64,000 nt of DNA from the human T2T-CHM13v2.0 reference genome, Homo sapiens: contig CP086569.2 in NCBI GenBank assembly GCA_009914755.4, positions 35,808,001-35,872,000 on the forward strand, read 5' to 3'. Position numbers and translations under genes: made by a program. Positions 1-64,000 of this stretch are shown piece by piece. Numbering within the stretch: position 1 is the first letter of the stretch; every line of letters starts with the position of its first letter. The notes below the pieces were generated by a model. The model did no database searches. It saw only the letters and a program-made list of their open reading frames with translations, and was not told where the DNA came from.

Positions 1-3000
1 GACTGGAATGGAATGTTCTCGAAGTGAACGGACTCCAATGGAATGGATTCGAAAGGAATGGAAACTAATGGAATGGAATTAAACGGAAATGAATCAAATA
101 GAATAGAACGGAATTGAATTGAATGGAATCGAATGCAATGGAATCTAATGAAACGGAAAGGAATGGAATGGAATGGGCTGGAATGGAATGGAATCGAAAC
201 GAATGGAATGGAATCGAACTGAAGAGACTGGAATGGAATGCACTGGAATGGAAGGGAATGTAATGGAAGGTTCTCGAAAAAAATGGAATCGAAAGGAATG
301 GAATTGAATGGAACGGAATAGAGTCGAATGGAATTCAATGGAATGGAATGGACTAGAGTGAAATGGAATCGAACCACAAGGAATGGACAGGAATAGAATG
401 GTCTCGAATTGAATGGAATCGTATGGAATGGCATCAAACGGAATGGAATGGACAGCCACGGAATGGAATGGACACCCACGGAATGGAATGCACTCGAATG
501 CAATGGAGTCGACACTAATGGACTGGAATAGAATGGACTCGACTGGTACGGACTCCAATGGAATGGAATCGAATGGAAGGGAATCGAAAGGAATGGACTC
601 GAAGGGAAAAAACTGCAATGGAAAGGTCTCCAATGGAATGGAAATTAATGGAATGGAATGGAATCGAATGAAATGGAGTCAAAAGGAATGGAATCGAATG
701 GCAAGAAATCGAATGTAATGGAATCGCAAGGAATTGATGTGAACGGAACGGAATGGAATGGAATCCAAAGGAATGGAATAGAATGGAATGGAATCGAATG
801 GAAAGGACTCGAATGGAAATCACTCGAATAGAATGCAATTTAATAAAATAGGATCAAATGTAATGGAATGGAATGGAAAGGAATCGAAACGAAAGGAATG
901 GAGACAGATGGAATGGAATGGAACAGAGAGCAATGGTATAGAATGGAATGGAATCATCTGGAATGGAATTGAATGGAATGGAATAATATGAAATGGAATG
1001 GAATGGAATGGAATGCCCTTGAATTAAATGGACTGGAATGCAATGGACTCGAACAGAGTGGAATGGAAAGTGTTGAAATAGAATGGAATGGACTCGTTTG
1101 GAATGGTCTAGTATGCAATGCAATCGACTGGCAGGGAATCAAAAGGAATGTAATCGAATGGATTGGACTGGAATGCAATGGACTCGAATAGATTGGAAAC
1201 GGAAAGCAAAGGAATGGAATGGAATAGTATGGAATGGAATGCAAAGGAATGGAGTGGAATAGACTAGAGTGGAATGGAATGGACTCGAAAGCAATGGACT
1301 GGAATGGAACTTTCTTGAATGGACTGGAATCAAACGGAATGGAATGCAATGCAATCAAATGGCATGGAATAAAATAGAATGAAAGAGAATCAAATGGAAT
1401 TGAATCGAATGGAATCGAATGGATTGGAAAGGAATAGAATGGAATGGAATGGAATTGACTCAAATGGAATGGACTAGAATGGAATGGATTCGAATGGAAG
1501 GCAAAGGAATGGAATCTATTGGAATGGACTGTAATGGAATGGAATGGAAGGGATTGGAATGGACTCGAATGGAATGGACTGCAGTAGAAAGGATTCGAAT
1601 GGAATGAAAAAGAATTGAATGGAATAGAACAGAATGGAATCAAATCGAATGAAATGGAATGGAATAGAAAGGAATGGAATGAAATGGAATGGAAAGGATT
1701 CGAATGGAATGCAATCGAATGGAATGCAATCGAATGGAATGGAATCGAACGGAATGGAATAAAATGGAAGAAAACTGGCAAGAAATGGAATCGAAATGAA
1801 TGGAGTGTTATGGAACGGACTCAAAAGGAATTGAATGTAATAGAATGGAGTGGAGTGGACTCGAATATAATGGACTGGAATGGAATGAAATCACATGGAA
1901 TGGGAACGAATGGAATGGAATGGAAAGGAATGGAATCGAATGCAAAGGAATCGAATGGAAGGGAATGAAATTGAATCAACAGGAATGGAAGGGAGTAGAA
2001 TAGACGGTAATGGAATGGACTCGAATAGAATGGACACGAATGCTCAAATTGAATGGACTCGAATGGAATGGAAACGAAAGGAATGTCATCGAATGGAATT
2101 GAATCGATTGGAATGAAATCACATAGAATGGAGTGGAATCAAATGGAATTGAATCGAAAGGAAAGGAAGCGAATGGACTGAAATGAAATGGAATGGAATT
2201 GAATGGAAATTAATTCAATGGAATAGAATGGAACGAAATTTCACGGAATGGAATCAAACTGAATGGAATCAAATCAATGGAATATAATCAAATGGAATGG
2301 AAAGGAATTGAATGGAGTAGATTGAATTGGATGGGATTGGAATGAAATGTACTGGAAAGGACTCGAATTTCATGAAACGGAATGGAATGAATTAGAACGG
2401 AATGGACTCGAATGGAATGGAATGTCATGGAATGGCATCAAATGGAATGGAATCGAATGCGATGGAATGCTATGGAATGGAATGGAATGCATTGGAATGG
2501 AATGTCCTCTAATGGAATGTATTCGAGTGGAATGGAATCGAATATAATGGAGTCTAATGAAATGGAATTGAAAGGAATGGGACCGAATACAATGGAATAT
2601 ACTGGAATGTAATGTAATGAACTCGAATGTAATTGACTGGAATGGAATGTACATGAATGGAATGTAATCGAATGGAAAGCAATCCAATGGAATAGAATCT
2701 AATGCAATAAAATCGACTCAAATAGAGTAGAATGTAATGGAATGGAGTGCAGTGCAATGGAATGGAATGGAATGGAATGCAATGGAATGGAATGGAATGG
2801 AATGGGATGGAATGGTATGGAATGGATAGTAATGGACTGGAGTGAAATGGACTGGAAAAGAATGGACTCAAATTGAAAGGGCTCGAAAGGAATGGAGTCA
2901 AATGGAATGGTCTGGAATGGAATGAACACGAATGTAATGCAATCCAATAGAATGGAATCGAATGGCATGGAATATAAAGAAATGGAATCGAAGAGAATGG

Positions 3001-3534
3001 AAACAAATGGAATGGAATTGAATGGAATGGAATTGAATGGAATGGGAACGAATGGAGTGAAATTGTATGCAGTAGAAGAGAATAGAATGGAATGCAAGCG
3101 AAAGGAAAGGAATGGATTGGAATGGAATGGAATTCATTGGAATGGAAGGGAATGTAGTGTAATGGACAGGCCTGGAATAAAGTGGAATGCTACGGTCTCG
3201 AATGGAATAAAAATGTATGGAACGGAATGCAATGAAACGGAATCGAATGTCATAGAATGTAATGGAATGCAAAAAAATGGACTCCAAAATCATTGACTGG
3301 AAAGGCTGGGTGTCGAAAGGAATTGACTCCAATGGAATGGAATCGAATGGAATGGAAGTGAATAGAATCGAACTAAATCGAATGGAATGGAATTGATAGG
3401 AACGGAATGGAAAGGAATGCAATGATTTGGCATGGAATGGAATCGAATGGCATCGAATGGAATGGAATGGAATGCAATGGAATGGAATGTATTAGAATGT
3501 AATGAACTTTAATGGAATGTACTCGAATGGATTC
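1..3534 (+). repeat. HSat3 HOR copy 1 (3534 bp), subtype A
   Basis: Starts at landmark gactggaatggaatgttctcgaagtgaacggactcc. Carries two copies of the 15-mer ggaatggacaNccacg (451-480) and the KNCNGK-variant pseudo-ORF at 413-718. Near-identical to copies 9 and 12. Confidence 0.85.
835..866 (+). repeat. AT-rich non-pentameric landmark (gcaatttaataaaataggatcaaatgtaatgg) present once per HOR copy
   Basis: The same 32-mer recurs at about 4384, 7918, 11447, 14959, 18503, 22002, 25550, 29079, 32593, 36141, 39670, 43219, 46753, 50302, 53856, 57360 and 60864. Copies 17/18 read attgcaattt. It is useful as a phase marker. No function is implied. Confidence 0.7.
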
Positions 3535-6500
3535 GACTGGAATGGAATGTTCTCGAAGTGAATGGACTCCAATGGAATGGATTCGAAAGGAATGGAATCT
3601 AATGGAATGGAATTAAATGGAAATGAATCAAATTGAATAGAACGGAATTGAATTGAATGGAATCGAATGCAATGGAATCTAATGAAACGGAAAGGAAAGG
3701 AATGGAATGGATTGGAATGGAATGGGCTGGAATGGAATGGAATCGAAACGAATGGAATGGAATCGAACTGAAGAGACTGGAATGGAATGCACTGGAATGG
3801 AAGGGAATGTAATGGAAGGTTCTCGAAAAAAATGGAATCGAAAGGAATGGAATTGAATGGAACGGAATAGAGTCGAATGGAATTGAATGGAATGGAATGG
3901 ACTAGAGTGAAATGGAATCGAACCACAAGGAATGGACAGGAATAGAATGGTCTCGAATTGAATGGAATCGTATGGAATGGCATCAAACGGAATGGAATGG
4001 ACAGCCACGGAATGGAATGGACACCCACGGAATGGAATGCACTCGAATGCAATGGAGTCGACACTAATGGACTGGAATAGAATGGACTCGACTGGTACGG
4101 ACTCCAATGGAATGGAATCGAATGGAAGGGAATCGAAAGGAATGGACTCGAAGGGAAAAGACTGCAATGGAAAGGTCTCCAATGGAATGGAAATTAATGG
4201 AATGGAATGGAATCGAATGAAATGGAGTCAAAAGGAATGGAATCGAATGGCAAGAAATCGAATGTAATGGAATCGCAAGGAATTGATGTGAACGGAACGG
4301 AATGGAATGGAATCCAAAGGAATGGAATAGAATGGAATGGAATCGAATGGAAAGGACTCGAATGGAAATCACTCGAATAGAATGCAATTTAATAAAATAG
4401 GATCAAATGTAATGGAATGGAATGGAAAGGAATCGAAACGAAAGGAATGGAGACAGATGGAATGGAATGGAACAGAGAGCAATGGTATAGAATGGAATGG
4501 AATCATCTGGAATGGAATTGAATGGAATGGAATAATATGAAATGGAATGGAATGGAATGGAATGCCCTTGAATTAAATGGACTGGAATGCAATGGACTCG
4601 AACAGAGTGGAATGGAATGTGTTGAAATAGAATGGAATGGACTCGTTTGGAATGGTCTAGTATGCAATGCAATCGACTGGCAGGGAATCAAAAGGAATGT
4701 AATCGAATGGATTGGACTGGAATGCAATGGACTCGAATAGATTGGAAGCAGAAAGCAAAGGAATGGAATGGAATAGTATGGAATGGAATGCAAAGGAATG
4801 GAGTGGAATAGACTAGAGTGGAATGGAATGGACTCGAAAGCAATGGACTGGAATGGAACTTTCTTGAATGGACTGGAATCAAACGGAATGGAATGCAATG
4901 CAATCAAATGGCATGGAATAAAATAGAATGAAAGAGAATCAAATGGAATTGAATCGAATGGAATCGAATGGATTGGAAAGGAATAGAATGGAATGGAATG
5001 GAATTGACTCAAATGGAATGGACTAGAATGGAATGGATTCGAATGGAAGGCAAAGGAATGGAATCTATTGGAATGGACTGTAATGGAATGGAATGGAAGG
5101 GATTGGAATGGACTCGAATGGAATGCGCTGCAATAGAAAGGATTCGAATGGAATGAAAAAGAATTGAATGGAATAGAACAGAATGGAATCAAATCGAATG
5201 AAATGGAATGGAATAGAAAGGAATGGAATGAAATGGAATGGAAAGGATTCGAATGGAATGCAATCGAATGGAATGCAATCGAATGGAATGGAATCGAACG
5301 GAATGGAATAAAATGGAAGAAAACTGGCAAGAAATGGAGTCGAAATGAATGGAGTGTTATGGAACGGACTCAAAAGGAATTGAATGTAATAGAATGGAGT
5401 GGAGTGGACTCGAATATAATGGACTGGAGTGGAATGAAATCACATGGAATGGGAACGAATGGAATGGAATGGAAAGGAATGGAATCGAATGGAAAGGAAT
5501 CGAATGGAAGGGAATGAAATTGAATCAACAGGAATGGAAGGGAGTAGAATAGACGGTAATGGAATGGACTCGAATAGAATGGACACGAATGCTCAAATTG
5601 AATGGACTCGAATGGAATGGAAACGAAAGGAATGTCATCGAATGGAATTGAATCTATTGGAATGAAATCACATAGAATGGAGTGGAATCAAATGGAATTG
5701 AATCGAAAGGAAAGGAAGCGAATGGACTGAAATGAAATGGAATGGAATTGAATGGAAATTAATGCAATGGAATAGAATGGAACGAAATTTCACGGAATGG
5801 AATCAAACTGAATGGAATCAAATCAATGGAATATAATCAAATGGAATGGAAAGGAATTGAATGGAGTAGATTGGATTGGATGGGATTGGAATGAAATGTA
5901 CTGGAAAGGACTCGAATTTCATGAAACGGAATGGAATGAATTAGAACGGAATGGACTCGAATGGAATGGAATGTCATGGAATGGCATCAAATGGAATGGA
6001 ATCGAATGCGATGGAATGCTATGGAATGGAATGGAATGCATTGGAATGGAATGTCCTCTAATGGAATGGATTTGAGTGGAATGGAATCGAATATAATGGA
6101 GTCTAATGAAATAGAATTGAAAGGAATGGGACCGAATACAATGGAATATACTGGAATGTAATGTAATGAACTCGAATGTAATTGACTGGAATGGAATGTA
6201 CATGAATGGAATGTAATCGAATGGAAAGCAATCCAATGGAATAGAATCTAATGCAATAAAATCGACTCAAATAGAGTAGAATGTAATGGAATGGAGTGCA
6301 GTGCAATGGAATGGAATGGAATGGAATGCAATGGAATGGAATGGAATGGAATGGGATGGAATGGTATGGAATGGATAGTAATGGACTGGAGTGAAATGGA
6401 CTGGAAAAGAATGGACTCAAATTGAAAGGGCTCGAAAGGAATGGAGTCAAATGGAATGGTCTGGAATGGAATGAACACGAATGTAATGCAATCCAATAGA

Positions 6501-7083
6501 ATGGAATCGAATGGCATGGAATATAAAGAAATGGAATCGAAGAGAATGGAAACAAATGGAATGGAATTGAATGGAATGGAATTGAATGGAATGGGAACGA
6601 ATGGAGTGAAATTGTATGCAGTAGAAGAGAATAGAATGGAATGCAAGCGAAAGGAAAGGAATGGATTGGAATGGAATGGAATTCATTGGAATGGAAGGGA
6701 ATGTAGTGTAATGGACAGGCCTGGAATAAAGTGGAATGCTACGGTCTCGAATGGAATAAAAATGTATGGAACGGAATGCAATGAAACGGAATCGAATGTC
6801 ATAGAATGTAATGGAATGCAAAAAAATGGACTCCAAAATCATTGACTGGAAAGGCTGGGTGTCGAAAGGAATTGACTCCAATGGAATGGAATCGAATGGA
6901 ATGGAAGTGAATAGAATCGAACTAAATCGAATGGAATGGAATTGATAGGAACGGAATGGAAAGGAATGCAATGATTTGGCATGGAATGGAATCGAATGGC
7001 ATCGAATGGAATGGAATGGAATGCAATGGAATGGAATGTATTAGAATGTAATGAACTTTAATGGAATGTACTCGAATGGATTC
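3535..7083 (+). repeat. HSat3 HOR copy 2 (3549 bp), subtype B
   Basis: Same landmark order as copy 1. Has 15 extra bp (aaggaaagg ... ggaatggattggaatgg) near the unit head. Near-identical to copy 13. Confidence 0.85.
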
Positions 7084-10000
7084 GACTGGAATGGAATGTT
7101 CTGGAAGTGAATGGACTCCAATGGAATGGATTCGAAAGGAATGGAAACTAATGGAATGGAATTAAACGGAAATGAATCAAATAGAATAGAACGGAATTGA
7201 ATTGAATGGAATCGAATGCAATGGAATCTAATGAAACGGAAAGGAATGGAATGGAATGGGCTGGAATGGAATGGAATCGAAACGAATGGAATGGAATCGA
7301 ACTGAAGAGACTGGAATGGAATGCACTGGAATGGAAGGGAATGTAATGGAAGGTTCTCGAAAAAAATGGAATCGAAAGGAATGGAATTGAATGGAACGGA
7401 ATAGAGTCGAATGGAATTCAATGGAATGGAATGGACTAGAGTGAAATGGAATCGAACCACAAGGAATGGACAGGAATAGAATGGTCTCGAATTGAATGGA
7501 ATCGTATGGAATGGCATCAAACGGAATGGAATGGACAGCCACGGAATGGAATGGACACCCACGGAATGGAATGCACTCGAATGCAATGGAGTCGACACTA
7601 ATGGACTGGAATAGAATGGACTCGACTGGTACGGACTCCAATGGAATGGAATCGAATGGAAGGGAATCGAACGGAATGGACTCGAAGGGAAAAGACTGCA
7701 ATGGAATGGTCTCGAATGGAATGGAAATTAATGGAATGGAATGGAATCGAATGAAATGGAGTCAAAAGGAATGGAATCGAATGGCAAGAAATCGAATGTA
7801 ATGGAATCGCAAGGAATTGATGTGAACGGAACGGAATGGAATGGAATCCAAAGGAATGGAATAGAATGGAATGGAATCGAATGGAAAGGACTCGAATGGA
7901 AATCACTCGAATAGAATGCAATTTAATAAAATAGGATCAAATGTAATGGAATGGAATGGAAAGGAATCGAAACGAAAGGAATGGAGACAGATGGAATGGA
8001 ATGGAACAGAGAGCAATGGTATAGAATGGAATGGAATCATCTGGAATGGAATTGAATGGAATGGAATAATATGAAATGGAATGGAATGGAATGGAATGCC
8101 CTTGAATTAAATGGACTGGAATGCAATGGACTCGAACAGAGTGGAATGGAAAGTGTTGAAATAGAATGGAATGGACTCGTTTGGAATGGTCTAGTATGCA
8201 ATGCAATCGACTGGCAGGGAATCAAAAGGAATGTAATCGAATGGATTGGACTGGAATGCAATGGACTCGAATAGATTGGAAACGGAAAGCAAAGGAATGG
8301 AATGGAATAGTATGGAATGGAATGCAAAGGAATGGAGTGGAATAGACTAGAGTGGAATGGAATGGACTCGAAAGCAATGGACTGGAATGGAACTTTCTTG
8401 AATGGACTGGAATCAAACGGAATGGAATGCAATGCAATCAAATGGCATGGAATAAAATAGAATGAAAGAGAATCAAATGGAATTGAATCGAATGGAATCG
8501 AATGGATTGGAAAGGAATAGAATGGAATGGAATGGAATTGACTCAAATGGAATGGACTAGAATGGAATGGATTCGAATGGAAGGCAAAGGAATGGAATCT
8601 ATTGGAATGGACTGTAATGGAATGGAATGGAAGGGATTGGAATGGACTCGAATGGAATGGACTGCAGTAGAAAGGATTCGAATGGAATGAAAAAGAATTG
8701 AATGGAATAGAACAGAATGGAATCAAATCGAATGAAATGGAATGGAATAGAAAGGAATGGAATGAAATGGAATGGAAAGGATTCGAATGGAATGCAATCG
8801 AATGGAATGCAATCGAATGGAATGGAATCGAACGGAATGGAATAAAATGGAAGAAAACTGGCAAGAAATGGAATCGAAATGAATGGAGTGTTATGGAACG
8901 GACTCAAAAGGAATTGAATGTAATAGAATGGAGTGGAGTGGACTCGAATATAATGGACTGGAATGGAATGAAATCACATGGAATGGGAACGAATGGAATG
9001 GAATGGAAAGGAATGGAATCGAATGCAAAGGAATCGAATGGAAGGGAATGAAATTGAATCAACAGGAATGGAAGGGAGTAGAATAGACGGTAATGGAATG
9101 GACTCGAATAGAATGGACACGAATGCTCAAATTGAATGGACTCGAATGGAATGGAAACGAAAGGAATGTCATCGAATGGAATTGAATCGATTGGAATGAA
9201 ATCACATAGAATGGAGTGGAATCAAATGGAATTGAATCGAAAGGAAAGGAAGCGAATGGACTGAAATGAAATGGAATGGAATTGAATGGAAAGTAATGCA
9301 ATGGAATAGAATGGAACGAAATTTCACGGAATGGAATCAAACTGAATGGAATCAAATCAATGGAATATAATCAAATGGAATGGAAAGGAATTGAATGGAG
9401 TAGATTGGATTGGATGGGATTGGAATGAAATGTACTGGAAAGGACTCGAAATTCATGAAACGGAATGGAATGAACTGGAACGGAATGGACTCGAATGGAA
9501 TGGAATGTCATGGAATGGCATCAAATGGAATGGAATCGAATGCGATGGAATGCTATGGAATGGAATGGAATGCATTGGAATGGAATGTCCTCTAATGGAA
9601 TGTATTCGAGTGGAATGGAATCGAATATAATGGAGTCTAATGAAATGGAATTGAAAGGAATGGGACCGAATACAATGGAATAAACTGGTATGTAATGTAA
9701 TGAACTCGAATGTAATTGACTGGAATGGAATGTACATGAATGGAATGTAATCGAATGGAAAGCAATCCAATGGAATAGAATCTAATGCAATAAAATCGAC
9801 TCAAATAGAGTAGAATGTAATGGAATGGAGTGCAGTGCAATGGAATGGAATGGAATGCAACGGAATGGAATGGAATGGAATGGAATGGGATGGAATGGTA
9901 TGGAATGGATAGTAATGGACTGGAGTGAAATGGACTGGAAAAGAATGGACTCAAATTGAAAGGGCTCGAAAGGAATGGAGTCAAATGGAATGGTCTGGAA

Positions 10001-10617
10001 TGGAATGAACACGAATGTAATGCAATCCAATAGAATGGAATCGAATGGCATGGAATATAAAGAAATGGAATCGAAGAGAATGGAAACAAATGGAATGGAA
10101 TTGAATGGAATGGAATTGAATGGAATGGGAACGAATGGAGTGAAATTGTATGCAGTAGAAGAGAATAGAATGGAATGCAAGCGAAAGGAAAGGAATGGAT
10201 TGGAATGGAATGGAATTCATTGGAATGGAAGGGAATGTAGTGTAATGGACAGGCCTGGAATAAAGTGGAATGCTACGGTCTCGAATGGAATAAAAATGTA
10301 TGGAATGGAATGCAATGAAACGGAATCGAATGTCATAGAATGTAATGGAATGCAAAAAAATGGACTCCAAAATCATTGACTGGAAAGGCTGGGTGTCGAA
10401 AGGAATTGACTCCAATGGAATGGAATCGAATGGAATGGAAGTGAATAGAATCGAACTAAATCGAATGGAATGGAATTGATAGGAACGGAATGGAAAGGAA
10501 TGCAATGATTTGGCATGGAATGGAATCGAAAGGCATCGAATGGAATGGAATGGAATGCAATGGAATGGAATGTATTAGAATGTAATGAACATTAATGGAA
10601 AGTACTCGAATGGATTC
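7084..10617 (+). repeat. HSat3 HOR copy 3 (3534 bp), subtype C
   Basis: Distinguishing variant ...gactgcaatggaatggtctcg... (pseudo-ORF 7496-7801 reads DCNGMVSNG). The first ~1.8 kb is near-identical to copy 14. The tail (about 8.9-10.6 kb) is more diverged from copy 14. Confidence 0.85.
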
Positions 10618-52400: not shown

Positions 52401-53006
52401 CGAATGTAATGCAATCCAATGGAATGGAATCGAATGGCATGGAATATAAAGAAATGGAATCGAAGAGAATGGAAACAAATGGAATGGAATTGAATGGAAT
52501 GGAATTGAATGGAATGGGAACGAATGGAGTGAAATTGTATGCAGTAGAAGAGAATAGAATGGAATGCAAGCGAAAGGAAAGGAATGGATTGGAATGGAAT
52601 GGAATTCATTGGAATGGAAGGGAATGTAGTGTAATGGACAGGCCTGGAATAAAGTGGAATGCTACGGTCTCGAATGGAATAAAAATGTATGGAATGGAAT
52701 GCAATGAAACGGAATCGAATGTCATAGAATGTAATGGAATGCAAAAAAATGGAATCCAAAATCATTGACTGGAAAGGCTGGGTGTCGAAAGGAATTGACT
52801 CCAATGGAATGGAATCGAATGGAATGGAAGTGAATAGAATGGAACTAAATCGAATGGAATGGAATTCATAGGAACGGAATGGAAAGGAATGCAATGATTT
52901 GGCATGGAATGGAATCGAATGGCATCGAATGGAATGGAATGGAATGCAATGGAATGGAATGTATTAGAATGTAATGAACTTTAATGGAATGTACTCGAAT
53001 GGATTC
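49453..53006 (+). repeat. HSat3 HOR copy 15 (3554 bp), subtype E
   Basis: Private variants shared with copy 16: ggaatggacatcactcgaattgaatgc, gactgatacgg, ggaaaaagactgc. Confidence 0.85.
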
Positions 53007-56000
53007 GACTGGAATGGAATGTTCTCGAAGTGAATGGACTCCAATGGAATGGATTCGAAAGGAATGGAATCTAATGGAATGGAATTAAATGGAAATGAAT
53101 CAAATTGAATAGAACGGAATTGAATTGAATGGAATCGAATGCAATGGAATCTAATGAAACGGAAAGGAAAGGAATGGAATGGATTGGAATGGAATGGGCT
53201 GGAATGGAATGGAATCGAAACGAATGGAATGGAATCGAACTGAAGAGACTGGAATGGAATGCACTGGAATGGAAGGGAATGTAATGGAAGGTTCTCGAAA
53301 AAAATGGAATCGAAAGGAATGGAATTGAATGGAACGGAATAGAGTCGAATGGAATTCAATGGAATGGAATGGACTAGAGTGAAATGGAATCGAACCACAA
53401 GGAATGGACAGGAATAGAATGGTCTCGAATTGAATGGAATCGTATGGAATGGCATCAATCAGAATGGAATGGACAGCCACGGAATGGAATGGACACCCAC
53501 GGAATGGAATGCACTCGAATGCAATGGAGTCGACACTAATGGACTGGAATAGAATGGACTCGACTGATACGGACTCCAATGGAATGGAATCGAATGGAAG
53601 GGAATCGAACGGAATGGACTCGAAGGAAAAAGACTGCAATGGAAAGGTCTCCAATGGAATGGAAATTAATGGAATGGAATGGAATCGAATGAAATGGAGT
53701 CAAAAGGAATGGAATCGAATGGCAAGAAATCGAATGTAATGGAATCGCAAGGAATTGATGTGAACGGAACGGAATGGAATGGAATCCAAAGGAATGGAAT
53801 AGAATGGAATGGAATCGAATGGAAAGGACTCGAATGGACATCACTCGAATTGAATGCAATTTAATAAAATAGGATCAAATGTAATGGAATGGAATGGAAA
53901 GGAATCGAAACGAAAGGAATGGAGACAGATGGAATGGAATGGAACAGAGAGCAATGGTATAGAATGGAATGGAATCATCTGGAATGGAATTGAATGGAAT
54001 GGAATAACATGAAATGGACTGGAATGGAATGGAATGCCCTTGAATTAAATGGACTGGAATGGAATGGACTCGAACAGAGTGGAATGGAAAGTGTTGAAAT
54101 AGAATGGAATGGACTCGTTTGGAATGGTCTAGTATGCAATGCAATCGACTGGCAGGGAATCAAAAGGAATGTAATCGAATGGATTGGACTGGAATGCAAT
54201 GGACTCGAATAGATTGGAAACGGAAAGCAAAGGAATGGAATGGAATAGTATGGAATGGAATGGAAAGGAATGGAGTGGAATAGACTAGAGTGGAATGGAA
54301 TGGACTCGAAAGCAATGGACTGGAATGGAACTTTCTTGAATGGACTGGAATCAAACGGAATGGAATGCAATGCAATCAAATGGCATGGAATAAAATAGAA
54401 TGAAAGAGAATGAAATAGAATTGAATCGAATGGAATCGAATGGATTGGAAAGGAATAGAATGGAATGGAATGGAATTGACTCAAATGGAATGGACTAGAA
54501 TGGAATGGATTCGAATGGAAGGCAAAGGAATGGAATCTATTGGAATGGACTGTAATGGAATGGAATGGAAGGGATTGGAATGGACTCGAATGGAATGGAC
54601 TGCAATAGAAAGGATTCGAATGGAATGAAAAAGAATTGAATGGAATAGAACAGAATGGAATCAAATCGAATGAAATGGAATGGAATAGAAAGGAATGGAA
54701 TGAAATGGAATGGAAAGGATTCGAATGGAATGCAATCGAATGGAATGCAATCTAATGGAATGGAATCGAACGGAATGGAATAAAATGGAAGAAAACTGGC
54801 AAGAAATGGAGTCGAAATGAATGGAGTGTTATGGAACCGACTCAAAAGGAATTGAATGTAATAGAATGGAGTGGAGTGGACTCGAATATAATGGACTGGA
54901 ATGGAATGAAATCACATGGAATGGGAACGAATGGAATGGAATGGAAAGGAATGGAATAGAATGGAAAGGAATCGAATGGAAGGGAATGAAATTGAATCAA
55001 CAGGAATGGAAGGGAGTAGAATAGACGGTAATGGAATGGACTCGAATAGAATGGACACGAATGCTCAAATTGAATGGACTCGAATGGAATGGAAACGAAA
55101 GGAATGTCATCGAATGGAATTGAATCGATTGGAATGAAATCACATAGAATGGAGTGGAATCAAATGGAATTGAATCGAAAGGAAAGGAAGCGAATGGACT
55201 GAAATGAAATGGAATGGAATTGAATGGAAATTAATGCAATGGAATAGAATGGAACGAAATTTCACGGAATGGAATCAAACTGAATGGAATCAAATCAATG
55301 GAATATAATCAAATGGAATGGAAAGGAATTGAATGGAGTAGATTGGATTGGATGGGATTGGAATGAAATGTACTGGAAAGGACTCGAATTTCATGAAACG
55401 GAATGGAATGAATTAGAACGGAATGGACTCGAATGGAATGGAATGTCATGGAATGGCATCAAATGGAATGGAATCGAATGCGATGGAATGCTATGGAATG
55501 GAATGGAATGCATTGGAATGGAATGTCCTCTAATGGAATGTATTCGAGTGGAATGGAATCGAATATAATGGAGTCTAATGAAATGGAATTGAAAGGAATG
55601 GGACCGAATACAATGGAATATACTGGAATGTAATGTAATGAACTCGAATGTAATTGACTGGAATGGAATGTACATGAATGGAATGTAATCGAATGGAAAG
55701 CAATCCAATGGAATAGAATCTAATGCAATAAAATCGACTCAAATAGAGTAGAATGTAATGGAATGGAGTGCAGTGCAATGGAATGGAATGGAATGGAATG
55801 CAATGGAATGGAATGGAATGGGATGGAATGGTATGGAATGGATAGTAATGGACTGGAGTGAAATGGACTGGAAAAGAATGGACTCAAATTGAAAGGGCTC
55901 GAAAGGAATGGAGTCAAATGGAATGGTCTGGAATGGAATGAACACGAATGTAATGCAATCCAATAGAATGGAATCGAATGGCATGGAATATAAAGAAATG

Positions 56001-56535
56001 GAATCGAAGAGAATGGAAACAAATGGAATGGAATTGAATGGAATGGGAACGAATGGAGTGAAATTGTATGCAGTAGAAGAGAATAGAATGGAATGCAAGC
56101 GAAAGGAAAGGAATGGATTGGAATGGAATGGAATTCATTGGAATGGAAGGGAATATAGTGTAATGGACAGGCCTGGAATAAAGTGGAATGCTACGGTCTC
56201 GAATGGAATAAAAATGTATGGAATGGAATGCAATGAAACGGAATCGAATGTCATAGAATGTAATGGAATGCAAAAAAATGGACTCCAAAATCATTGACTG
56301 GAAAGGCTGGGTGTCGAAAGGAATTGCCTCCAATGGAATGGAATCGAATGGAATGGAAGTGAATAGAATGGAACTAAATCGAATGGAATGGAATTGATAG
56401 GAACGGAATGGAAAGGAATGCAATGATTTGGCATGGAATGGAATCGAATGGCATCGAATGGAATGGAATGGAATGCAATGGAATGGAATGTATTAGAATG
56501 TAATGAACTTTAATGGAATGTACTCGAATGGATTC
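53007..56535 (+). repeat. HSat3 HOR copy 16 (3529 bp), subtype E
   Basis: Adjacent near-twin of copy 15. Confidence 0.85.
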
Positions 56536-59500
56536 GACTGGAATGGAATGTTCTTGAAGTGAATGGACTCCAATGGAATGGATTCGAAAGGAATGGAATC
56601 TAATGGAATGGAATTAAATGGAAATGAATCAAATTGAATAGAACGGAATTGAATTGAATGGAATCGAATGCAATGGAATCTAATGAAACGGAAAGGAAAG
56701 GAATGGAATGGAATGGAATGGGCTGGAATGGAAAGGAATCGAAACGAATGGAATGGAATCGAACTGAAGAGACTGGAATGGAATGCACTGGAATGGAAGG
56801 GAATGTAATGGAAGGTTCTCGAAAAAAATGGAATCGAAAGGAATGGAATTGAATGGAACGGAATAGAGTCGAATGGAATTCAATGGAATGGAATGGACTA
56901 GAGTGAAATGGAATCGAACCACAAGGAATGGACAGGAATAGAATGGTCTCGAATTGAATGGAATCGTATGGAATGGCATCAAACGGAATGGAATGGACAC
57001 CCACGGAATGGAATGCACTCGAATGCAATGGAGTCGAAACTAATGGACTGGAATAGAATGGACTCGACTGGTACGGACTCCAATGGAATGGAATCGAATG
57101 GAAGGGAATCGAACGGAATGGACTCGAAGGGAAAAGACTGCAATGGAAAGGTCTCGAATGGAATGGAAATTAATGGAATCGAATGGAATCGAATGAAATG
57201 GAGTCAAAAGGAATGGAATCGAATGGCAAGAAATCGAATGTAATGGAATCGCAAGGAATTGATGTGAACGGAACGGAATGGAATGGAATCCAAAGGAATG
57301 GAATAGAATGGAATGGAATCGAATGGAAAGGACTCGAATGGCAATCACTCGAATAGATTGCAATTTAATAAAATAGGATCAAATGTAATGGAATGGAATG
57401 GAAAGGAATCGAAACGAAAGGAATGGAGACAGATGGAATGGAATGGAACAGAGAGCAATGGTATAGAATGGAATGGAATCATCTGGAATGGAATTGAATG
57501 GAATGGAATAATATGAAATGGAATGGAATGGAATGGAATGCCTTTGAATTAAATGGACTGGAATGGAATGGACTCGAACAGAGTGGAATGGAAAGTGTTG
57601 AAATAGAATGGAATGGACTCGTTTGGAATGGTCTAGTATGCAATGCAATCGACTGGCAGGGAATCAAAAGGAATGTAATCGAATGGATTGGACTGGAATG
57701 CAATGGACTCGAATAGATTGGAAACGGAAAGCAAAGGAATGGAATGGAATAGTATGGAATGGAATGGAAAGGAATGGAGTGGAATAGACTAGAGTGGAAT
57801 GGAATGGACTGGAAAGCAATGGACTGGAATGGAACTTTCTTGAATGGACTGGAATCAAACGGAATGGAATGCAATGCAATCAAATGGCATGGAATAAAAT
57901 AGAATGAAAGAGAATCAAATGGAATTGAATCGAATGGAATCGAATGGATTGGAAAGGAATAGAATGGAATGGAACGGAATTGACTCAAATGGAATGGACT
58001 AGAATGGAATGGATTCGAATGGAAGGCAAAGGAATGGAATCTATTGGAATGGACTGTAATGGAATGGAATGGAAGGGATTGGAATGGACTCGAATGGAAT
58101 GGACTGCCATAGAAAGGATTCGAATGGAATGAAAAAGAATTGAATGGAATAGAACAGAATGGAATCAAATCGAATGAAATGGAATGGAATAGAAAGGAAT
58201 GGAGTGAAATGGAATGGAAAGGATTCGAATGGAATGCAATCGAATGGAATGCAATCGAATGGAATGGAATCGAACGGAATGGAATAAAATGGAAGAAAAC
58301 TGGCAAGAAATGGAATCGAAATGAACGGAGTGTTATGGAACGGACTCAAAAGGAATTGAATGTAATAGAATGGAGTGGAGTGGACTCGAATATAATGGAC
58401 TGGAATGGAATGAAATCACATGGAATGGGAACGAATGGAATGGAATGGAAAGGAATGGAATCGAATGGAAAGGAATCGAATGGAAGGGAATGAAATTGAA
58501 TCAACAGGAATGGAAGGGAGTAGAATAGACGGTAATGGAATGGACTCGAATAGAATGGACACGAATGCTCAAATTGAATGGACTCGAATGGAATGGAAAC
58601 GAAAGGAATGTCATCGAATGGAATTGAATCGATTGGAATGAAATCACATAGAATGGAGTGGAATCAAATGGAATTGAATCGAAAGGAAAGGAAGCGAATG
58701 GACTGAAATGAAATGGAATGGAATTGAATGGAAATTAATGCAATGGAATAGAATGGAACGAAATTTCACGGAATGGAATCAAACTGAATGGAATCAAATC
58801 AATGGAATATAATCAAATGGAATGGAAAGGAATTGAATGGAGTAGATTGGATTGGATGGGATTGGAATGAAATGTACTGGAAAGGACTCGAATTTCATGA
58901 AACGGAATGGAATGAATTAGAACGGAATGGACTCGAATGGAATGGAATGTCATGGAATGGCATCAAATGGAATGGAATCGAATGCGATGGAATGCTATGG
59001 AATGGAATGGAATGCATTGGAATGGAATGTCCTCTAATGGAATGTATTCGAGTGGAATGGAATCGAATATAATGGAGTCTAATGAAATGGAATTGAAAGG
59101 AATGGGACCGAATACAATGGAATATACTGGAATGTAATGTAATGAACTCGAATGTAATTGACTGGAATGGAATGTACATGAATGGAATGTAATCGAATGG
59201 AAAGCAATCCAATGGAATAGAATCTAATGCAATAAAATCGACTCAAATAGAGTAGAATGTAATGAAATGGAGTGCAGTGCAATGGAATGGAATGGAATGG
59301 AATGCAATGGAATGGAATGGAATGGGATGGAATGGTATGGAATGGATAGTAATGGACTGGAGTGAAATGGACTGGAAAAGAATGGACTCAAATTGAAAGG
59401 GCTCGAAAGGAATGGAGTCAAATGGAATGGTCTGGAATGGAATGAACACGAATGTAATGCAATCCAATAGAATGGAATCGAATGGCATGGAATATAAAGA

Positions 59501-60039
59501 AATGGAATCGAAGAGAATGGAAACAAATGGAATGGAATTGAATGGAATGGGAACGAATGGAGTGAAATTGTATGCAGTAGAAGAGAATAGAATGGAATGC
59601 AAGCGAAAGGAAAGGAATGGATTGGAATGGAATGGAATTCATTGGAATGGAAGGGAATGTAGTGTAATGGACAGGCCTGGAATAAAGTGGAATGCTACGG
59701 TCTCGAATGGAATAAAAATGTATGGAATGGAATGCAATGAAACGGAATCGAATGTCATAGAATGTAATGGAATGCAAAAAAATGGACTCCAAAATCATTG
59801 ACTGGAAAGGCTGGGTGTCGAAAGGAATTGCCTCCAATGGAATGGAATCGAATGGAATGGAAGTGAATAGAATGGAACTAAATCGAATGGAATGGAATTG
59901 ATAGGAACGGAATGGAAAGGAATGCAATGATTTGGCATGGAATGGAATCGAATGGCATCGAATGGAATGGAATGGAATGCAATGGAATGGAATGTATTAG
60001 AATGTAATGAACTTTAATGGAATGTACTCGAATGGATTC
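56536..60039 (+). repeat. HSat3 HOR copy 17 (3504 bp), subtype D-prime
   Basis: Private variants shared with copy 18: only one copy of ggaatggaattgaat near 56.03 kb, ggaattgcctcc, ggcaatcactcgaatagattgc, and a single ggaatggacacccacg. Confidence 0.85.
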
Positions 60040-63000
60040 GACTGGAATGGAATGTTCTTGAAGTGAATGGACTCCAATGGAATGGATTCGAAAGGAATGG
60101 AATCTAATGGAATGGAATTAAATGGAAATGAATCAAATTGAATAGAACGGAATTGAATTGAATGGAATCGAATGCAATGGAATCTAATGAAACGGAAAGG
60201 AAAGGAATGGAATGGAATGGAATGGGCTGGAATGGAAAGGAATCGAAACGAATGGAATGGAATCGAACTGAAGAGACTGGAATGGAATGCACTGGAATGG
60301 AAGGGAATGTAATGGAAGGTTCTCGAAAAAAATGGAATCGAAAGGAATGGAATTGAATGGAACGGAATAGAGTCGAATGGAATTCAATGGAATGGAATGG
60401 ACTAGAGTGAAATGGAATCGAACCACAAGGAATGGACAGGAATAGAATGGTCTCGAATTGAATGGAATCGTATGGAATGGCATCAAACGGAATGGAATGG
60501 ACACCCACGGAATGGAATGCACTCGAATGCAATGGAGTCGAAACTAATGGACTGGAATAGAATGGACTCGACTGGTACGGACTCCAATGGAATGGAATCG
60601 AATGGAAGGGAATCGAACGGAATGGACTCGAAGGGAAAAGACTGCAATGGAAAGGTCTCGAATGGAATGGAAATTAATGGAATCGAATGGAATCGAATGA
60701 AATGGAGTCAAAAGGAATGGAATCGAATGGCAAGAAATCGAATGTAATGGAATCGCAAGGAATTGATGTGAACGGAACGGAATGGAATGGAATCCAAAGG
60801 AATGGAATAGAATGGAATGGAATCGAATGGAAAGGACTCGAATGGCAATCACTCGAATAGATTGCAATTTAATAAAATAGGATCAAATGTAATGGAATGG
60901 AATGGAAAGGAATCGAAACGAAAGGAATGGAGACAGATGGAATGGAATGGAACAGAGAGCAATGGTATAGAATGGAATGGAATCATCTGGAATGGAATTG
61001 AATGGAATGGAATAATATGAAATGGAATGGAATGGAATGGAATGCCTTTGAATTAAATGGACTGGAATGGAATGGACTCGAACAGAGTGGAATGGAAAGT
61101 GTTGAGATAGAATGGAATGGACTCCTTTGGAATGGTCTAGTATGCAATGCAATCGACTGGCAGGGAATCAAAAGGAATGTAATCGAATGGATTGGACTGG
61201 AATGCAATGGACTCGAATAGATTGGAAACGGGATGCAAAGGAATGGAATGGAATAGTATGGAATGGAATGGAAAGGAATGGAGTGGAATAGACTAGAGTG
61301 GAATGGAATGGACTGGAAAGCAATGGACTGGAATGGAACTTTCTTGAATGGACTGGAATCAAACGGAATGGAATGCAATGCAATCAAATGGCATGGAATA
61401 AAATAGAATGAGAGAGAATCAAATGGAATTGAATCGAATGGAATCGAATGGATTGGAAAGGAATAGAATGGAATGGAATGGAATGGACTCAAATGGAATG
61501 GACTAGAATGGAATGGATTCGAATGGAAGGCAAAGGAATGGAATCTATTGGAATGGACTGTAATGGAATGGAATGGAAGGGATTGGAATGGACTCGAATG
61601 GAATGGACTGCAATAGAAAGGATTCGAATGGAATGAAAAAGAATTGAATGGAATAGAACAGAATGGAATGAAATCGAATGAAATGGAATGGAATAGAAAG
61701 GAATGGAATGAAATGGAATGGAAAGGATTCGAATGGAATGCAATCGAATGGAATGGAATCGAACGGAATGGAATAAAATGGAAGAAAACTGGCAAGAAAT
61801 GGAATCGAAATGAATGGAGTGTTATGGAACGGACTCAAAAGGAATTGAATGTAATAGAATGGAGTGGAGTGGACTCGAATATAATGGACTGGAATGGAAT
61901 GAAATCACATGGAATGGGAACGAATGGAATGGAATGGAAAGGAATGGAATCGAATGGAAAGGAATCGAATGGAAGGGAATGAAATTGAATCAACAGGAAT
62001 GGAAGGGAATAGAATAGACGGTAATGGAATGGACTCGAATAGAATGGACACGAATGCTCAAATTGAATGGACTCGAATGGAATGGAAACGAAAGGAATGT
62101 CGTCGAATGGAATTGAATCGATTGGAATGAAATCGCATAGAATGGAGTGGAATCAAATGGAATTGAATCGAAAGGAAAGGAAGCGAATGGTCTGAAATGA
62201 AATGGAATGGAATTGAATGGAAAGTAATGCAAGGGAATAGAATGGAACGAAATTTCACGGAATGGAATCAAACTGAATGGAATCAAATCAATGGAATATA
62301 ATCAAATGGCATGGAAAGGAATTGAATGGAGTAGATTGGATTGGATGGGATTGGAATGAAATGTACTGGAAAGGACTCGAATTTCATGAAATGGAATGGA
62401 ATGAACTGGAACGGAATGGACTCGAATGGAATGGAATGTCATGGAATGGCATCAAATGGAATGGCATCAAATGGAATGGAATCGAATGCAATGGAATGCT
62501 ATGGAATGGAATGGAATGCATTGGAATGGAATGTCCCCTAATGGAATGGATTCGAGTGGAATGGAATCGAATATAATGGAGTCGAATGAAATGGAATTGA
62601 AAGGAAAGGGATCGAATACAATGGAATATACTGGAATGTAATGTAATGAACTCGAATGTAATTGACTAGAATGGAATGTACATGAATGGAATGTAATCGA
62701 ATGGAAAATAATCTCATGGAATAGAATCTAATGCAATAAAATCGACTCAAATAGAATAGAATGGAATGGAGTGGAGTGCAGTGCAATGGAATGGAATGGA
62801 ATGGAATGCAATGGAATGGAATGGAATGGGATGGAATGGTATGGGATGGATAGAAATGGACTGGAGTGAAATGGACTGGAAAGTAATGGACTCAAATTGA
62901 AAGAGCTCGAAAGAATGGAGTCAAATGGAATGGTCTGGAATGGAATGAACACGAATGTAATGCAATCCAATAGAATGGAATCGAATGGCATGGAATATAA

Positions 63001-63557
63001 AGAAATGGAATCGAAGAGAATGGAAACGAATGGAATGGAATTGAATGGAATGGAATTGAATGGAATGGGAACGAATGGAGTGAAATTGTATGCAGTAGAA
63101 GAGAATAGAATGGAATGCAAGCGAAATTAAAGGAATGGATTGGAATGGAATGGAATTCATTGGAATGGAAGGTAATGTATTGCAATGGACAGGCCTTTAA
63201 TAAAGTGGAATGCTACGGTCTCGAATGGAATAAAAATGTATGGAATGGAATTCAATGAAACGGAATCGAATGTCATAGAATGTAATGGAATGCAAAAAAA
63301 TGGAATCCAAAATCATTGACTGGAAAGGCTGGGTGTCGAAAGGAATTGACTCCAATGGAATGAAATCGAATGGAATGGAAGTGAATAGAATCGAAGTAAA
63401 TCGAATGGAATGGAATTGTTAGGAACGGAATGGAAAGGAGTGCAATGATTTGGCATGGAATGGAATCGAATGGCATTGAATGGAGTGGAATGGAATGCAA
63501 TGGAATGGAATGTATTAGAATGTAATGAACATTAATGGAATGTACTCGAATGGATTC
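60040..63557 (+). repeat. HSat3 HOR copy 18 (3518 bp), subtype D-prime with a diverged tail
   Basis: Adjacent near-twin of copy 17. The last ~1 kb (62.5-63.5 kb) carries many private substitutions. Confidence 0.8.
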
Positions 63558-64000
63558 GACTGGAATGGAATGTTCTGGAAGTGAATGGACTCCAATGGAA
63601 TGGATTCGAAAGGAATGGAATCTAATGGAATGGAATTAAATGGAAACGAATCAAATTGAATAGCACGGAATTGAATTGAATGGAATCGAATGCAATGGAA
63701 TCTAATGAAATGGAAAGGAAAGGAATGGAATGGAATGGAATGGGCTGGAGTTGAATGGAATCGATACGAATGGAATGGAATAGAACTGAAGAGACTGGAA
63801 TGGAATTCACTGGAATGGAAGGGAGTGTAATGGAAGGATCTCGAAAAAAATGGAATCGAATGGAATGGAATTGAATGGAACGGAATAGAGTCGAATGGAA
63901 TTCAATGGAATTGAATGGACTAGAGTGAAATGGAATCGAACCACAAGGAATGGACAGGAATAGAATGGTCTCGAATTGAATGGAATCGTATGGAATGACA
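63558..64000 (+). repeat. HSat3 HOR copy 19 (partial, truncated by window end)
   Basis: Begins with gactggaatggaatgttctggaagtgaatggactcc. Diverged, for example ggctggagttgaatggaatcgatacg. Confidence 0.8.

What the first reader, a model, noticed from the sequence alone, without database searches (positions are those of the whole stretch)
1..64000. Window is pure HSat3 (GGAAT)n satellite, most likely the Y-chromosome DYZ1 array, not a gene-containing locus
Every part of the 64 kb is built from GGAAT pentamers and close variants. The overarching period is about 3.53 kb. From memory, that period matches the classic DYZ1 (Yq12) EcoRI/HaeIII unit of about 3.4-3.6 kb. I find no hidden gene system. 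The sequence matters as long, uninterrupted satellite in which homogenisation dynamics can be read.
Basis: partly seen in the sequence, partly recalled or inferred. Interest (0 to 1): 0.5.

Follow-up and report, generated by a model that had tools for sequence, protein, structure and literature searches.

The report
Human Y-chromosome DYZ1 satellite array

Summary
The window holds 18 head-to-tail higher-order units (3504-3554 bp, mean 3531) plus partial units at the ends. All lie on one strand and are built from diverged GGAAT pentamers. A published 3564-bp DYZ1 HaeIII unit (PMC3925983) aligns end to end, HaeIII site to HaeIII site, to all 17 complete HaeIII-phased units at 95.2-97.7% identity. 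Out-of-register background is about 71%. The window consensus is 99.0% identical to that unit at aligned bases. Of 14 published HSat2/HSat3 subfamily-diagnostic 24-mers, only the HSat3A6 (DYZ1, Y) one is present. Eight published DYZ1 primers and a Yq12 HSF1-ChIP amplicon also map as expected. GC (38.7%) and CpG density (1 per 34 bp) match published DYZ1 values. Nothing foreign is inserted (largest indel 50 bp), Rfam finds nothing, and the ORFs are repeat-frame artefacts. Refinements: the units are mostly a locally homogenised DYZ1 sub-variant, not the modal 3564/3569-bp type. The array also carries multi-unit block duplications and mosaic units, as unequal exchange and gene conversion would leave. 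Y/Yq12 placement could not be tested directly because no human assembly was available. This is already known; interest is low.

The parts
1..3170 (+). Partial DYZ1 unit (3' 3170 bp of a HaeIII-phased unit); part of a 9.15-kb block repeated 38,835 bp downstream
   Evidence: Aligns to positions 365-3564 of the published unit at 95.5%. The block 1-9154 matches 38836-47989 with 5 mismatches.
3171..63193 (+). 17 complete HaeIII-phased DYZ1 (HSat3A6) units U1-U17. Their starts are 3171, 6720, 10254, 13768, 17310, 20824, 24337, 27881, 31415, 34928, 38472, 42006, 45555, 49089, 52643, 56172 and 59676. Lengths are 3504-3554 bp. The GGAAT strand is the + strand.
   Evidence: Each aligns 1-3564 to the published unit at 95.2-97.7% with 41-62 substitutions. 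The window consensus (3544 bp) shows 34 substitutions in 3509 aligned bases against the published unit.
63194..64000 (+). Partial DYZ1 unit (first 807 bp)
   Evidence: It continues the array after the HaeIII site at 63192, and the anchor recurs at 63567.
3168..3173 (.). Conserved StuI/HaeIII site (AGGCCT) that defines the classical DYZ1 fragment. It recurs once per unit, with GGCC at 3169, 6718, 10252 ... 63192.
   Evidence: 18 StuI sites and 21 HaeIII sites. The three extra HaeIII sites at 11071, 21641 and 32232 mark the 'C-type' units U3, U6 and U9.
19364..41147 (+). About 2 copies of a 10,591-bp (3-unit) super-repeat: 19364-30556 matches 29955-41147
   Evidence: 12 mismatches in 11,193 ungapped bases, with a longest exact run of 4,496 bp. 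U7 and U10 are identical and U6 and U9 differ by 2 substitutions.
38836..47989 (+). Second copy of the 9.15-kb block 1-9154 (lag 38,835 bp, 11 units)
   Evidence: 5 mismatches in 9,154 bases, with a longest exact run of 4,858 bp. U1 and U12 differ by 1 substitution.
3545..3557 (+). Perfect trimeric heat-shock-element-like motif GAAnnTTCnnGAA (GAATGTTCTCGAA). It is one of three per unit, at about 375, 630-645 and 1651-1686 bp from the HaeIII cut; the window has 54 in total.
   Evidence: 54 occurrences against 2.5 expected in pentamer-block shuffles. Positions match the published unit's 375/655/1681. HSF1 binding to Yq12 SATIII was shown by ChIP in PMC7889540.
3163..3329 (+). Published Yq12 HSF1-ChIP amplicon (167 bp), spanning the HaeIII site and the least pentamer-like stretch of the unit
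   Evidence: The reverse primer matches exactly and the forward primer has 1 substitution. The amplicon is 167 bp in 14 units and also in the published unit.
869..892 (-). HSat3A6-specific 24-mer TCGTTTCGATTCCTTTCCATTCCA (first of 19 exact copies)
   Evidence: 19 exact copies and 36 within one mismatch, all on the minus strand. The 24-mers of the other 13 subfamilies have 0 hits.

Best explanation
The window is an internal piece of a DYZ1 (HSat3A6) satellite array, the ~3.5-kb nested repeat of diverged GGAAT/CATTC pentamers. Together with DYZ2, DYZ1 makes up the Yq12 heterochromatin of the human Y chromosome. It encodes no protein or structured RNA. The array is maintained and reshaped by repeat turnover, which shows directly in the sequence. 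(a) Slippage-type indels come in multiples of 5 bp, most often 15 bp. (b) Unequal exchange or tandem duplication has occurred in registers of several units. (c) Exchange or gene-conversion breakpoints inside units leave mosaic units. Most units here are a locally homogenised derived sub-variant. Units U4 and U17 keep an indel pattern closer to the canonical unit. According to the literature, the only sequence-specific activity known for this satellite is as a binding platform. HSF1 binds Yq12 SATIII on heat shock, drives (GGAAU)n transcription and forms nuclear stress bodies, and HSat3 in general carries dense TEAD-type GGAATG sites. The window keeps three perfect HSEs per unit and 34 GGAATG per kb. 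It is therefore inferred, not shown, to be competent for that role.
For: Identity: the full-length, HaeIII-registered alignment to the published DYZ1 unit gives 95.2-97.7%, against about 71% out of register. The consensus is 99.0% identical at aligned bases. Only the HSat3A6 24-mer is present. Eight DYZ1 primers are colinear with 0-1 error. There is one HaeIII/StuI site per unit. GC is 38.7% and CpG 1 per 33.9 bp, against published 38% and 1 per 35 bp. The B-type satellite III motif is absent. The literature describes DYZ1 as a Y-specific HSat3 subfamily with ~3.6-kb nested repeats, in blocks of 80-1600 kb or arrays of 50 kb-3.6 Mb, so 64 kb without a junction is expected. Turnover: indel sizes are 5, 10, 15, 20 and 25 bp, plus a few 1-bp and some larger ones up to 50 bp. 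An 11.2-kb block repeats at a 3-unit lag with 12 mismatches, and a 9.15-kb block at an 11-unit lag with 5 mismatches. Units are mosaic in their nearest-neighbour pattern, with 184 shared-variant columns against 162 singleton columns. T2T-Y reports tandem duplications, unequal exchange and sister-chromatid exchange in Yq12, and pedigree data report gene conversion there. Binding platform: HSEs sit at the same positions as in the published unit, and the ChIP amplicon is present. GGAATG density is, and TEAD/HSF1 binding to HSat3. Independent copies: the same family occurs as human contamination in 7 bacterial assemblies and in 40 metagenome stretches. One long contig runs into a 14%-GC, DYZ2-like stretch.
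Against: No human genome assembly could be searched, so chromosomal position is inferred from subfamily identity. The window contains no DYZ2 junction or other Yq12 landmark. Altemose 2014 lists HSat3A6 as 'Y, 7', so a minor non-Y location exists in the literature. No HaeIII fragment in the window has the canonical 3564 bp or the modal 3569 bp. Most independent public copies match the published unit (99-99.8%) better than they match the window consensus (96-97.7%). This is therefore a variant block rather than typical DYZ1. The perfect identity of U7 and U10 could be a real recent duplication or an assembly artefact, which cannot be tested without reads. HSF1 or TEAD binding to these particular copies was not and cannot be tested here.
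Confidence: 0.94

Rival explanations
1. It is an autosomal HSat3 array (chr9 HSat3B5, chr15 D15Z1/HSat3A5, or an acrocentric HSat3A4 or B-type array) that happens to have a ~3.5-kb higher-order period.
For: All HSat3 arrays share the GGAAT pentamer, and generic similarity to DYZ1 reaches about 71% in any register.
Against: None of the diagnostic 24-mers of those subfamilies occurs, even with one mismatch, whereas the HSat3A6 one occurs 19 times exactly. The published DYZ1 unit aligns full-length in HaeIII register at 95-98%. The B-type motif is absent.
Confidence: 0.01
2. It is genuine HSat3A6/DYZ1-type sequence that lies off Yq12. Candidates are the minor chr7 location listed by Altemose 2014, Yq12 material transposed to an acrocentric short arm, or the DYZ1-derived repeats at the Yq11/Yq12 transition.
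For: Table 1 of Altemose 2014 gives 'Y, 7' for HSat3A6. Hallast et al. describe a 2.7-kb repeat that is 77% DYZ1-derived at the Yq11/Yq12 boundary. The window's units are a sub-variant and none has the modal fragment length.
Against: Units are full-length (3.5 kb) and colinear with the whole DYZ1 unit, not 2.7- or 3.1-kb chimeras. Yq12 holds 7-98 Mb of HSat3A6, so the prior for any non-Yq12 site is very small. A clean array of 64 kb or more fits reported DYZ1 array sizes.
Confidence: 0.04
3. It comes from a non-human great ape whose Y chromosome or autosomes carry a related (AATGG)n satellite.
For: (AATGG)n is abundant in all great apes, and FISH detects it on ape Y chromosomes.
Against: The consensus is 99.0% identical to clones from human males. 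It shares their HaeIII register, all eight primer sites and the HSE positions. One search reports rapid turnover of ape satellite arrays. That a shared 3.5-kb unit would not survive at this identity is my inference from this.
Confidence: 0.01

Closest known systems
DYZ1 / HSat3A6 (human Yq12; Nakahori 1986 3564-bp unit, GenBank X06228; twin-study clones KF941192-9)
   Same: It shares the pentamer base, the nested ~3.5-kb unit and the single HaeIII/StuI site. It is colinear over the full length at 95-98% (consensus 99.0% at aligned bases). It also shares the diagnostic 24-mer, the primer sites, the HSE positions, GC and CpG density.
   Different: Units are 3504-3554 bp rather than 3564 or 3569 bp. 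Most carry a fixed set of 5-20-bp indels relative to the canonical unit. C-type units (U3, U6, U9) have a second HaeIII site, and many units have a second EcoRI site. There is local 2-, 3- and 11-unit super-structure.
Other HSat3 subfamilies (HSat3B5 on 9q12, HSat3A5/D15Z1 on chr15, HSat3A4 on acrocentrics, HSat3A3/DYZ17 on the Y)
   Same: GGAAT/CATTC pentamer ancestry, heterochromatic tandem arrays, and TEAD/HSF1-type motif content.
   Different: Their diagnostic 24-mers are absent here. B-type subfamilies carry a ...CTCGGGTTG... motif that is absent here. Similarity to this window is only the generic ~71% level.
DYZ2 / HSat1B (the satellite that alternates with DYZ1 in Yq12)
   Same: Same chromosomal compartment according to the literature. 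An independent metagenome contig (L027) runs from DYZ1 into a 14%-GC, DYZ2-like stretch.
   Different: It is an unrelated ~2.4-kb unit with an Alu fragment and a >85% AT segment. None of it is present in the window.

Membership tests
DYZ1 / HSat3A6 | Nested tandem repeat of ~3.5-3.6 kb built from diverged CATTC/GGAAT pentamers | tested here: met
   18 units of 3504-3554 bp.
DYZ1 / HSat3A6 | One HaeIII site per unit, giving the classical ~3.4-3.56-kb male-specific HaeIII fragment | tested here: met
   A conserved GGCC (within AGGCCT) occurs once per unit, with spacing of 3504-3554 bp. Three units have an extra site that would give 819 + 2695 bp. No fragment has the canonical 3564 bp or the modal 3569 bp.
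DYZ1 / HSat3A6 | Full-length colinear sequence identity to a published DYZ1 unit | tested here: met
   Positions 1-3564 of the unit from PMC3925983 Additional file 1 align to all 17 complete units at 95.2-97.7%, against about 71% out of register. Consensus: 34 substitutions in 3509 bases.
DYZ1 / HSat3A6 | Carries the HSat3A6-specific 24-mer and lacks those of other HSat2/3 subfamilies (Altemose 2014 Table 1) | tested here: met
   HSat3A6: 19 exact hits and 36 within one mismatch. The other 13 subfamilies: 0 within one mismatch. Only the single most common 24-mer per subfamily was available, not the full sets.
DYZ1 / HSat3A6 | Published DYZ1/Yq12-specific PCR primers bind in the expected order and orientation | tested here: met
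   Eight primers from PMC3925983 map with 0-1 error within one unit. The Yq12 ChIP primers from PMC7889540 give a 167-bp amplicon. Primers recalled from memory (Kogan Y1.1/Y1.2) match exactly and give 154 bp, but no source for them was found in the library.
DYZ1 / HSat3A6 | Base composition of ~38% GC and ~1 CpG per 35 bp | tested here: met
   38.7% GC and 1 CpG per 33.9 bp, against the published values.
DYZ1 / HSat3A6 | Male-specific, located in Yq12, arrays alternating with DYZ2 | not testable with these tools
   No human assembly or sex-stratified read data were available, and the window has no array boundary. There is indirect support only: an independent DYZ1 contig (L027) abuts a 14%-GC, DYZ2-like stretch.
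Autosomal HSat3 (HSat3B5 chr9, HSat3A5 chr15, HSat3A4 acrocentric, and others) and HSat2 | Subfamily-specific 24-mers; B-type CTCGGGTTG-like motif for HSat3B | tested here: not met
   0 hits within one mismatch for all 13. B-type motifs: 0.
HSF1-bound SATIII (nuclear stress body nucleation sites) | Perfect trimeric HSEs (nGAAnnTTCnnGAAn) interspersed in the satellite; HSF1 occupancy on heat shock | tested here: inconclusive
   The sequence part is met: 3 perfect HSEs per unit at the same positions as in the published unit. Occupancy was shown by others for Yq12 in general and cannot be tested here for these copies.

The most novel reading that the evidence does not exclude
The block is a distinct, locally homogenised DYZ1 sub-variant. 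Its units are 3513-3549 bp with a fixed set of pentamer-multiple indels, an extra HaeIII site in every C-type unit, and 7.1-kb and 10.6-kb super-repeats. Such a sub-variant could mark a particular Yq12 array or Y lineage and so serve as an array- or haplogroup-specific marker. A less likely version is that it sits at a non-Yq12 site of HSat3A6.
Probability: 0.25. Interest if true: 0.2.

Novelty: already known. Interest (0 to 1): 0.08.

Why it matters
It matters mainly as a negative result. The window holds no gene system, mobile element or structured RNA. It is a textbook human satellite, now fully represented in T2T Y assemblies. Two practical points follow. First, the same satellite turns up as human contamination in deposited bacterial genome assemblies and in metagenome contigs, so a window like this in a microbial scan should be treated as host DNA. 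Second, the window is a compact worked example of satellite turnover, showing pentamer-multiple indels, multi-unit duplications and mosaic units. These are consistent with the unequal exchange and gene conversion already reported for Yq12.

Tried and rejected
Literal searches of the paper library for the DYZ1 primers I recalled from memory found nothing, so I treat those primers as a lead only and relied on primers printed in PMC3925983 and PMC7889540. A paper found through the term '154 bp' (PMC9187067) was irrelevant, because its 154 bp refers to an STS amplicon. My first fuzzy primer mapping reported 2 errors everywhere because I had not forced best-match mode; I redid it. A self-BLAST meant to list long near-identical blocks returned nothing usable; I replaced it with an ungapped lag scan. 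Rfam at gathering thresholds gave no matches. Pfam on the recurrent 275-aa ORF gave only sub-threshold Extensin and Pentapeptide hits, which are low-complexity artefacts. The paper on acrocentric short arms offered no evidence of DYZ1 on autosomes. A search for statements on whether DYZ1 is human-specific among apes found only general (AATGG)n data. I did not use the phage, plasmid or E. coli collections, protein homology searches or structure prediction, because nothing in the window is coding or prokaryotic.
Full report
OBSERVATION. The window is compositionally uniform from end to end. GC is 0.375-0.399 in every 2-kb bin, with constant strong G>C and A>T skew. GGAAT and its rotations are by far the commonest 5-mers. 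The complementary ATTCC covers only 0.016% of the + strand, so the whole window is one array in one orientation. Base-match autocorrelation peaks at multiples of 5 bp, highest at 15 bp, and again at 3529, 3534 and 3549 bp. An anchor 19-mer recurs 19 times and defines 18 complete higher-order units of 3504-3554 bp (mean 3531). Each is 95.7-100% identical to the unit at 3544-7092. Tandem Repeats Finder sees only the 10-, 15- and 20-bp layers because its period limit is 500 bp. One caveat applies: the pentamers are strongly diverged. Only 32% of bases lie in exact GGAAT and 72% within one mismatch, and exact runs reach at most 7 copies.

WHAT IT IS. I tested the DYZ1 idea against published sequence rather than memory. 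Additional file 1 of PMC3925983 prints a 3564-bp DYZ1 HaeIII unit cloned from a human male, listed in the paper as GenBank KF941192. Its reverse complement aligns over its full length (1-3564) to each of the 17 complete HaeIII-phased units. The alignment runs exactly from one HaeIII site to the next, at 95.2-97.7% identity with only 41-62 substitutions. Every out-of-register alignment of the same query reaches only about 71%, which is the generic pentamer background. The window's majority consensus (3544 bp) differs from the published unit by 34 substitutions in 3509 aligned bases (99.0%) plus 90 gap columns. HaeIII (GGCC, inside a StuI site) cuts once per unit. This is the classical operational definition of DYZ1 and the one Hallast et al. 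used for virtual digestion. All eight DYZ1 primers in Table 5 of PMC3925983 map inside one unit in the published order and orientation, with 0-1 error. GC (38.7%) and CpG density (1 per 33.9 bp) match the published 38% and 1 per 35 bp.

DISCRIMINATION FROM OTHER HSat3. Table 1 of Altemose et al. [quoted passage not shown] Only the HSat3A6 24-mer is present, 19 times exactly and 36 times within one mismatch. That is about two sites per unit, as in the published unit. The other 13 have no hit within one mismatch, including HSat3B5 (chr9), HSat3A5 (chr15), HSat3A4 (acrocentrics) and HSat3A3 (Y). The CTCGGGTTG-type motif seen in B-type subfamily 24-mers is also absent. The T2T-Y paper describes DYZ1 as a Y-specific subfamily of HSat3 occurring as ~3.6-kb nested repeats in blocks of 80-1600 kb. 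Hallast et al. equate it with HSat3A6, give a ~3.5-kb unit, and report arrays of 50 kb to 3.6 Mb. A 64-kb window with no boundary is what one expects inside such an array.

WHAT COULD NOT BE SHOWN. None of the tools holds a human assembly, so placement on Yq12 is inferred from subfamily membership. The window contains no DYZ2 junction. Altemose 2014 lists HSat3A6 as 'Y, 7', so a small non-Y presence is on record. I put about 4% on a non-Yq12 location of genuine HSat3A6, and about 1% each on an autosomal subfamily and on a non-human ape origin.

NO HIDDEN CONTENT. Relative to the published unit, the largest indel in any unit is 50 bp, so no transposon, gene or foreign segment is inserted. Rfam at gathering thresholds returns nothing. 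The only ORFs of 250 aa or more are one 270-275-aa minus-strand ORF in 15 of the units. It translates to ...IPFHSIPFHS..., the expected stop-free reading of (ATTCC)n. Its Pfam matches (Extensin_1 at 31.7 bits against a cut-off of 105; Pentapeptide_4 at 24.6 against 38) are low-complexity artefacts.

REFINEMENT 1: A SUB-VARIANT, NOT THE MODAL UNIT. No HaeIII fragment here has the canonical 3564 bp, or the 3569 bp that Hallast et al. found most abundant in 6 of 7 genomes. I retrieved independent copies from public collections using a 31-mer from the least pentamer-like part of the unit. It hit 7 contigs in 'bacterial' genome assemblies and 40 metagenome stretches. Most of these are short-read collapsed contigs of about one unit, so they represent the commonest type. 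They match the published unit at 99-99.8% but the window consensus at only 96-97.7%. Their best matches within the window fall on units U4, U5 and U17, and U4 and U17 share the canonical indel pattern (32 and 46 gap columns against 81-115 for most other units). Most other units carry the same set of 5-20-bp indels. One metagenome contig (L012) matches window 33825-36401 at 99.0%, against 96.4% to the published unit, so this sub-variant exists in at least one other sample.

REFINEMENT 2: TURNOVER IS READABLE. (a) Indels among units are almost all multiples of 5 bp, with 15 bp the commonest. This fits the modest 15-bp sub-periodicity: P(GGAAT at +15 | GGAAT) is 0.41, against 0.31 at +5. (b) Blocks of several units are duplicated. 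The stretch 19364-30556 recurs 10,591 bp downstream (3 units) with 12 mismatches in 11.2 kb. The stretch 1-9154 recurs 38,835 bp downstream (11 units) with 5 mismatches and may extend beyond the window's left edge. At unit level, U7 and U10 are identical, U6 and U9 differ by 2 substitutions, U1 and U12 by 1, and U14 and U15 by 8. (c) Units are mosaics. For example, U8 matches U11 in its first 600 columns, U2/U13 in the middle and U5 at the end. U16 matches U17 at the start and U14/U15 later. There are 184 shared-variant columns against 162 singleton columns. These patterns are what unequal sister-chromatid exchange, tandem duplication and gene conversion produce. All three are reported for Yq12 from T2T-Y, Strand-seq and pedigree data. 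The mechanism is inferred from pattern, not observed.

FUNCTION. There is no coding or structured-RNA function. The best-supported sequence-specific activity comes from the literature. Penin et al. 2021 showed that Yq12 SATIII is required for HSF1 foci on the Y, and that HSF1 ChIP enriches a Yq12-specific amplicon after heat shock. They also reported four perfect HSEs in the 3564-bp unit. In the window, their reverse primer matches exactly and their forward primer has one substitution. The amplicon is 167 bp, both in 14 window units and in the published unit, although the paper states 154 bp. With the strict pattern GAAnnTTCnnGAA I find three HSEs per unit, 54 in total, against 2.5 expected in pentamer-block shuffles. 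They lie at the same offsets from the HaeIII cut as in the published unit. Because the units are copies, this reflects three conserved sites, not 54 independent events. The TEAD core GGAATG occurs 34 times per kb, in line with the report that HSat3 arrays act as TEAD binding platforms. Whether these particular copies are bound was not tested.

VERDICT. The window is DYZ1/HSat3A6, almost certainly from human Yq12, in a locally homogenised sub-variant block. This is already-known biology and interest is low.

Noticed in passing
L001-L007 (genome contigs): DYZ1 units occur as short contigs (0.5-3.6 kb) in deposited 'bacterial' assemblies. These are Actinomadura cremea JCM 3308 (BMRF01000076.1), Streptosporangium violaceochromogenes JCM 3281, Streptomyces griseoincarnatus JCM 4381, S. 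kurssanovii JCM 4388, Streptomyces sp. NPDC050549, Senimuribacter sp. DSM 106208 and a Polyangiaceae MAG. They are 98.7-99.8% identical to the published human DYZ1 unit, so they are human (male) DNA contamination, as the T2T-Y paper predicted.
   Followed up: partly
L027 (metagenome contig BNJU01004413.1, 54.6 kb), locus 4300-5892: DYZ1 runs for 4.3 kb into a 500-bp bin of 14% GC and then into ~42% GC. This fits the AT-rich and GC-richer parts published for DYZ2, so it is probably a DYZ1/DYZ2 array junction captured in a long metagenome contig. I did not align it to a DYZ2 sequence.
   Followed up: partly
L008, L009, L016, L018, L025, L033, L043 (metagenome contigs): These short-read metagenome contigs join a short DYZ1 fragment (about 130-1340 bp) to non-satellite sequence of 45-65% GC. 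They are likely chimeric assemblies of host satellite with microbial DNA.
   Followed up: no
L021, L045, L017, L042, L047 (metagenome contigs): These contigs carry the DYZ1 probe but are only 86-92% identical to DYZ1, and they also contain 24-mers of other HSat3 subfamilies (for example four HSat3B5 hits in L045). They are either mixed-subfamily mis-assemblies or genuinely divergent DYZ1-like HSat3. L023 (75%) and L044 (81%) are more divergent still.
   Followed up: partly
window 11071, 21641, 32232: A second HaeIII site (GGACGGCCACGG) lies 819 bp after the main one in units U3, U6 and U9 only. These units would give 0.82 + 2.69-kb fragments instead of 3.5 kb. The site marks the C-type unit and the ~10.6-kb spacing.
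   Followed up: yes
window, EcoRI sites (for example 3130 conserved; 331, 7414, 10948 ... variable): One GAATTC is conserved in every unit. A second, about 735-750 bp downstream, is present in roughly half the units, and a few units near the right end have additional sites (49308, 52862, 63248, 63898). EcoRI digestion would therefore give a mix of ~3.5-kb and 2.8 + 0.74-kb fragments.
   Followed up: no
window, whole array: There is a modest 15-bp sub-period on top of the 5-bp one: base-match 0.684 at lag 15 against 0.637 at lag 5. GGAATGGAATCGAAT-type 15-mers are common, and 15 bp is the commonest indel size.
   Followed up: partly
window units U1-U17 (alignment): Variants among units show more transversions (117) than transitions (97). 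Only 13 of 214 are CpG>TpG/CpA, although the unit has 105 CpGs. This is unusual for mammalian DNA. It may reflect conversion between diverged pentamers, alignment effects near indels, or the CpG>TpG depletion reported for satellite-rich regions.
   Followed up: no
window 24337-27880 and 34928-38471: Units U7 and U10 are 100% identical over 3544 bp, inside a 4,496-bp exact repeat. This could be a very recent duplication or an assembly artefact, which cannot be decided without reads.
   Followed up: no
literature versus sequence (window 3162-3186, 3163-3329): There are small discrepancies in published oligos. Primer 'DYZ1 H' of PMC3925983 lacks one G of the GGCC site. Primer 'DYZ1 A' differs by a one-base indel from the window. 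The Yq12 forward ChIP primer of PMC7889540 differs by one base from both the window and the published unit. That paper's stated 154-bp product computes as 167 bp on both.
   Followed up: yes
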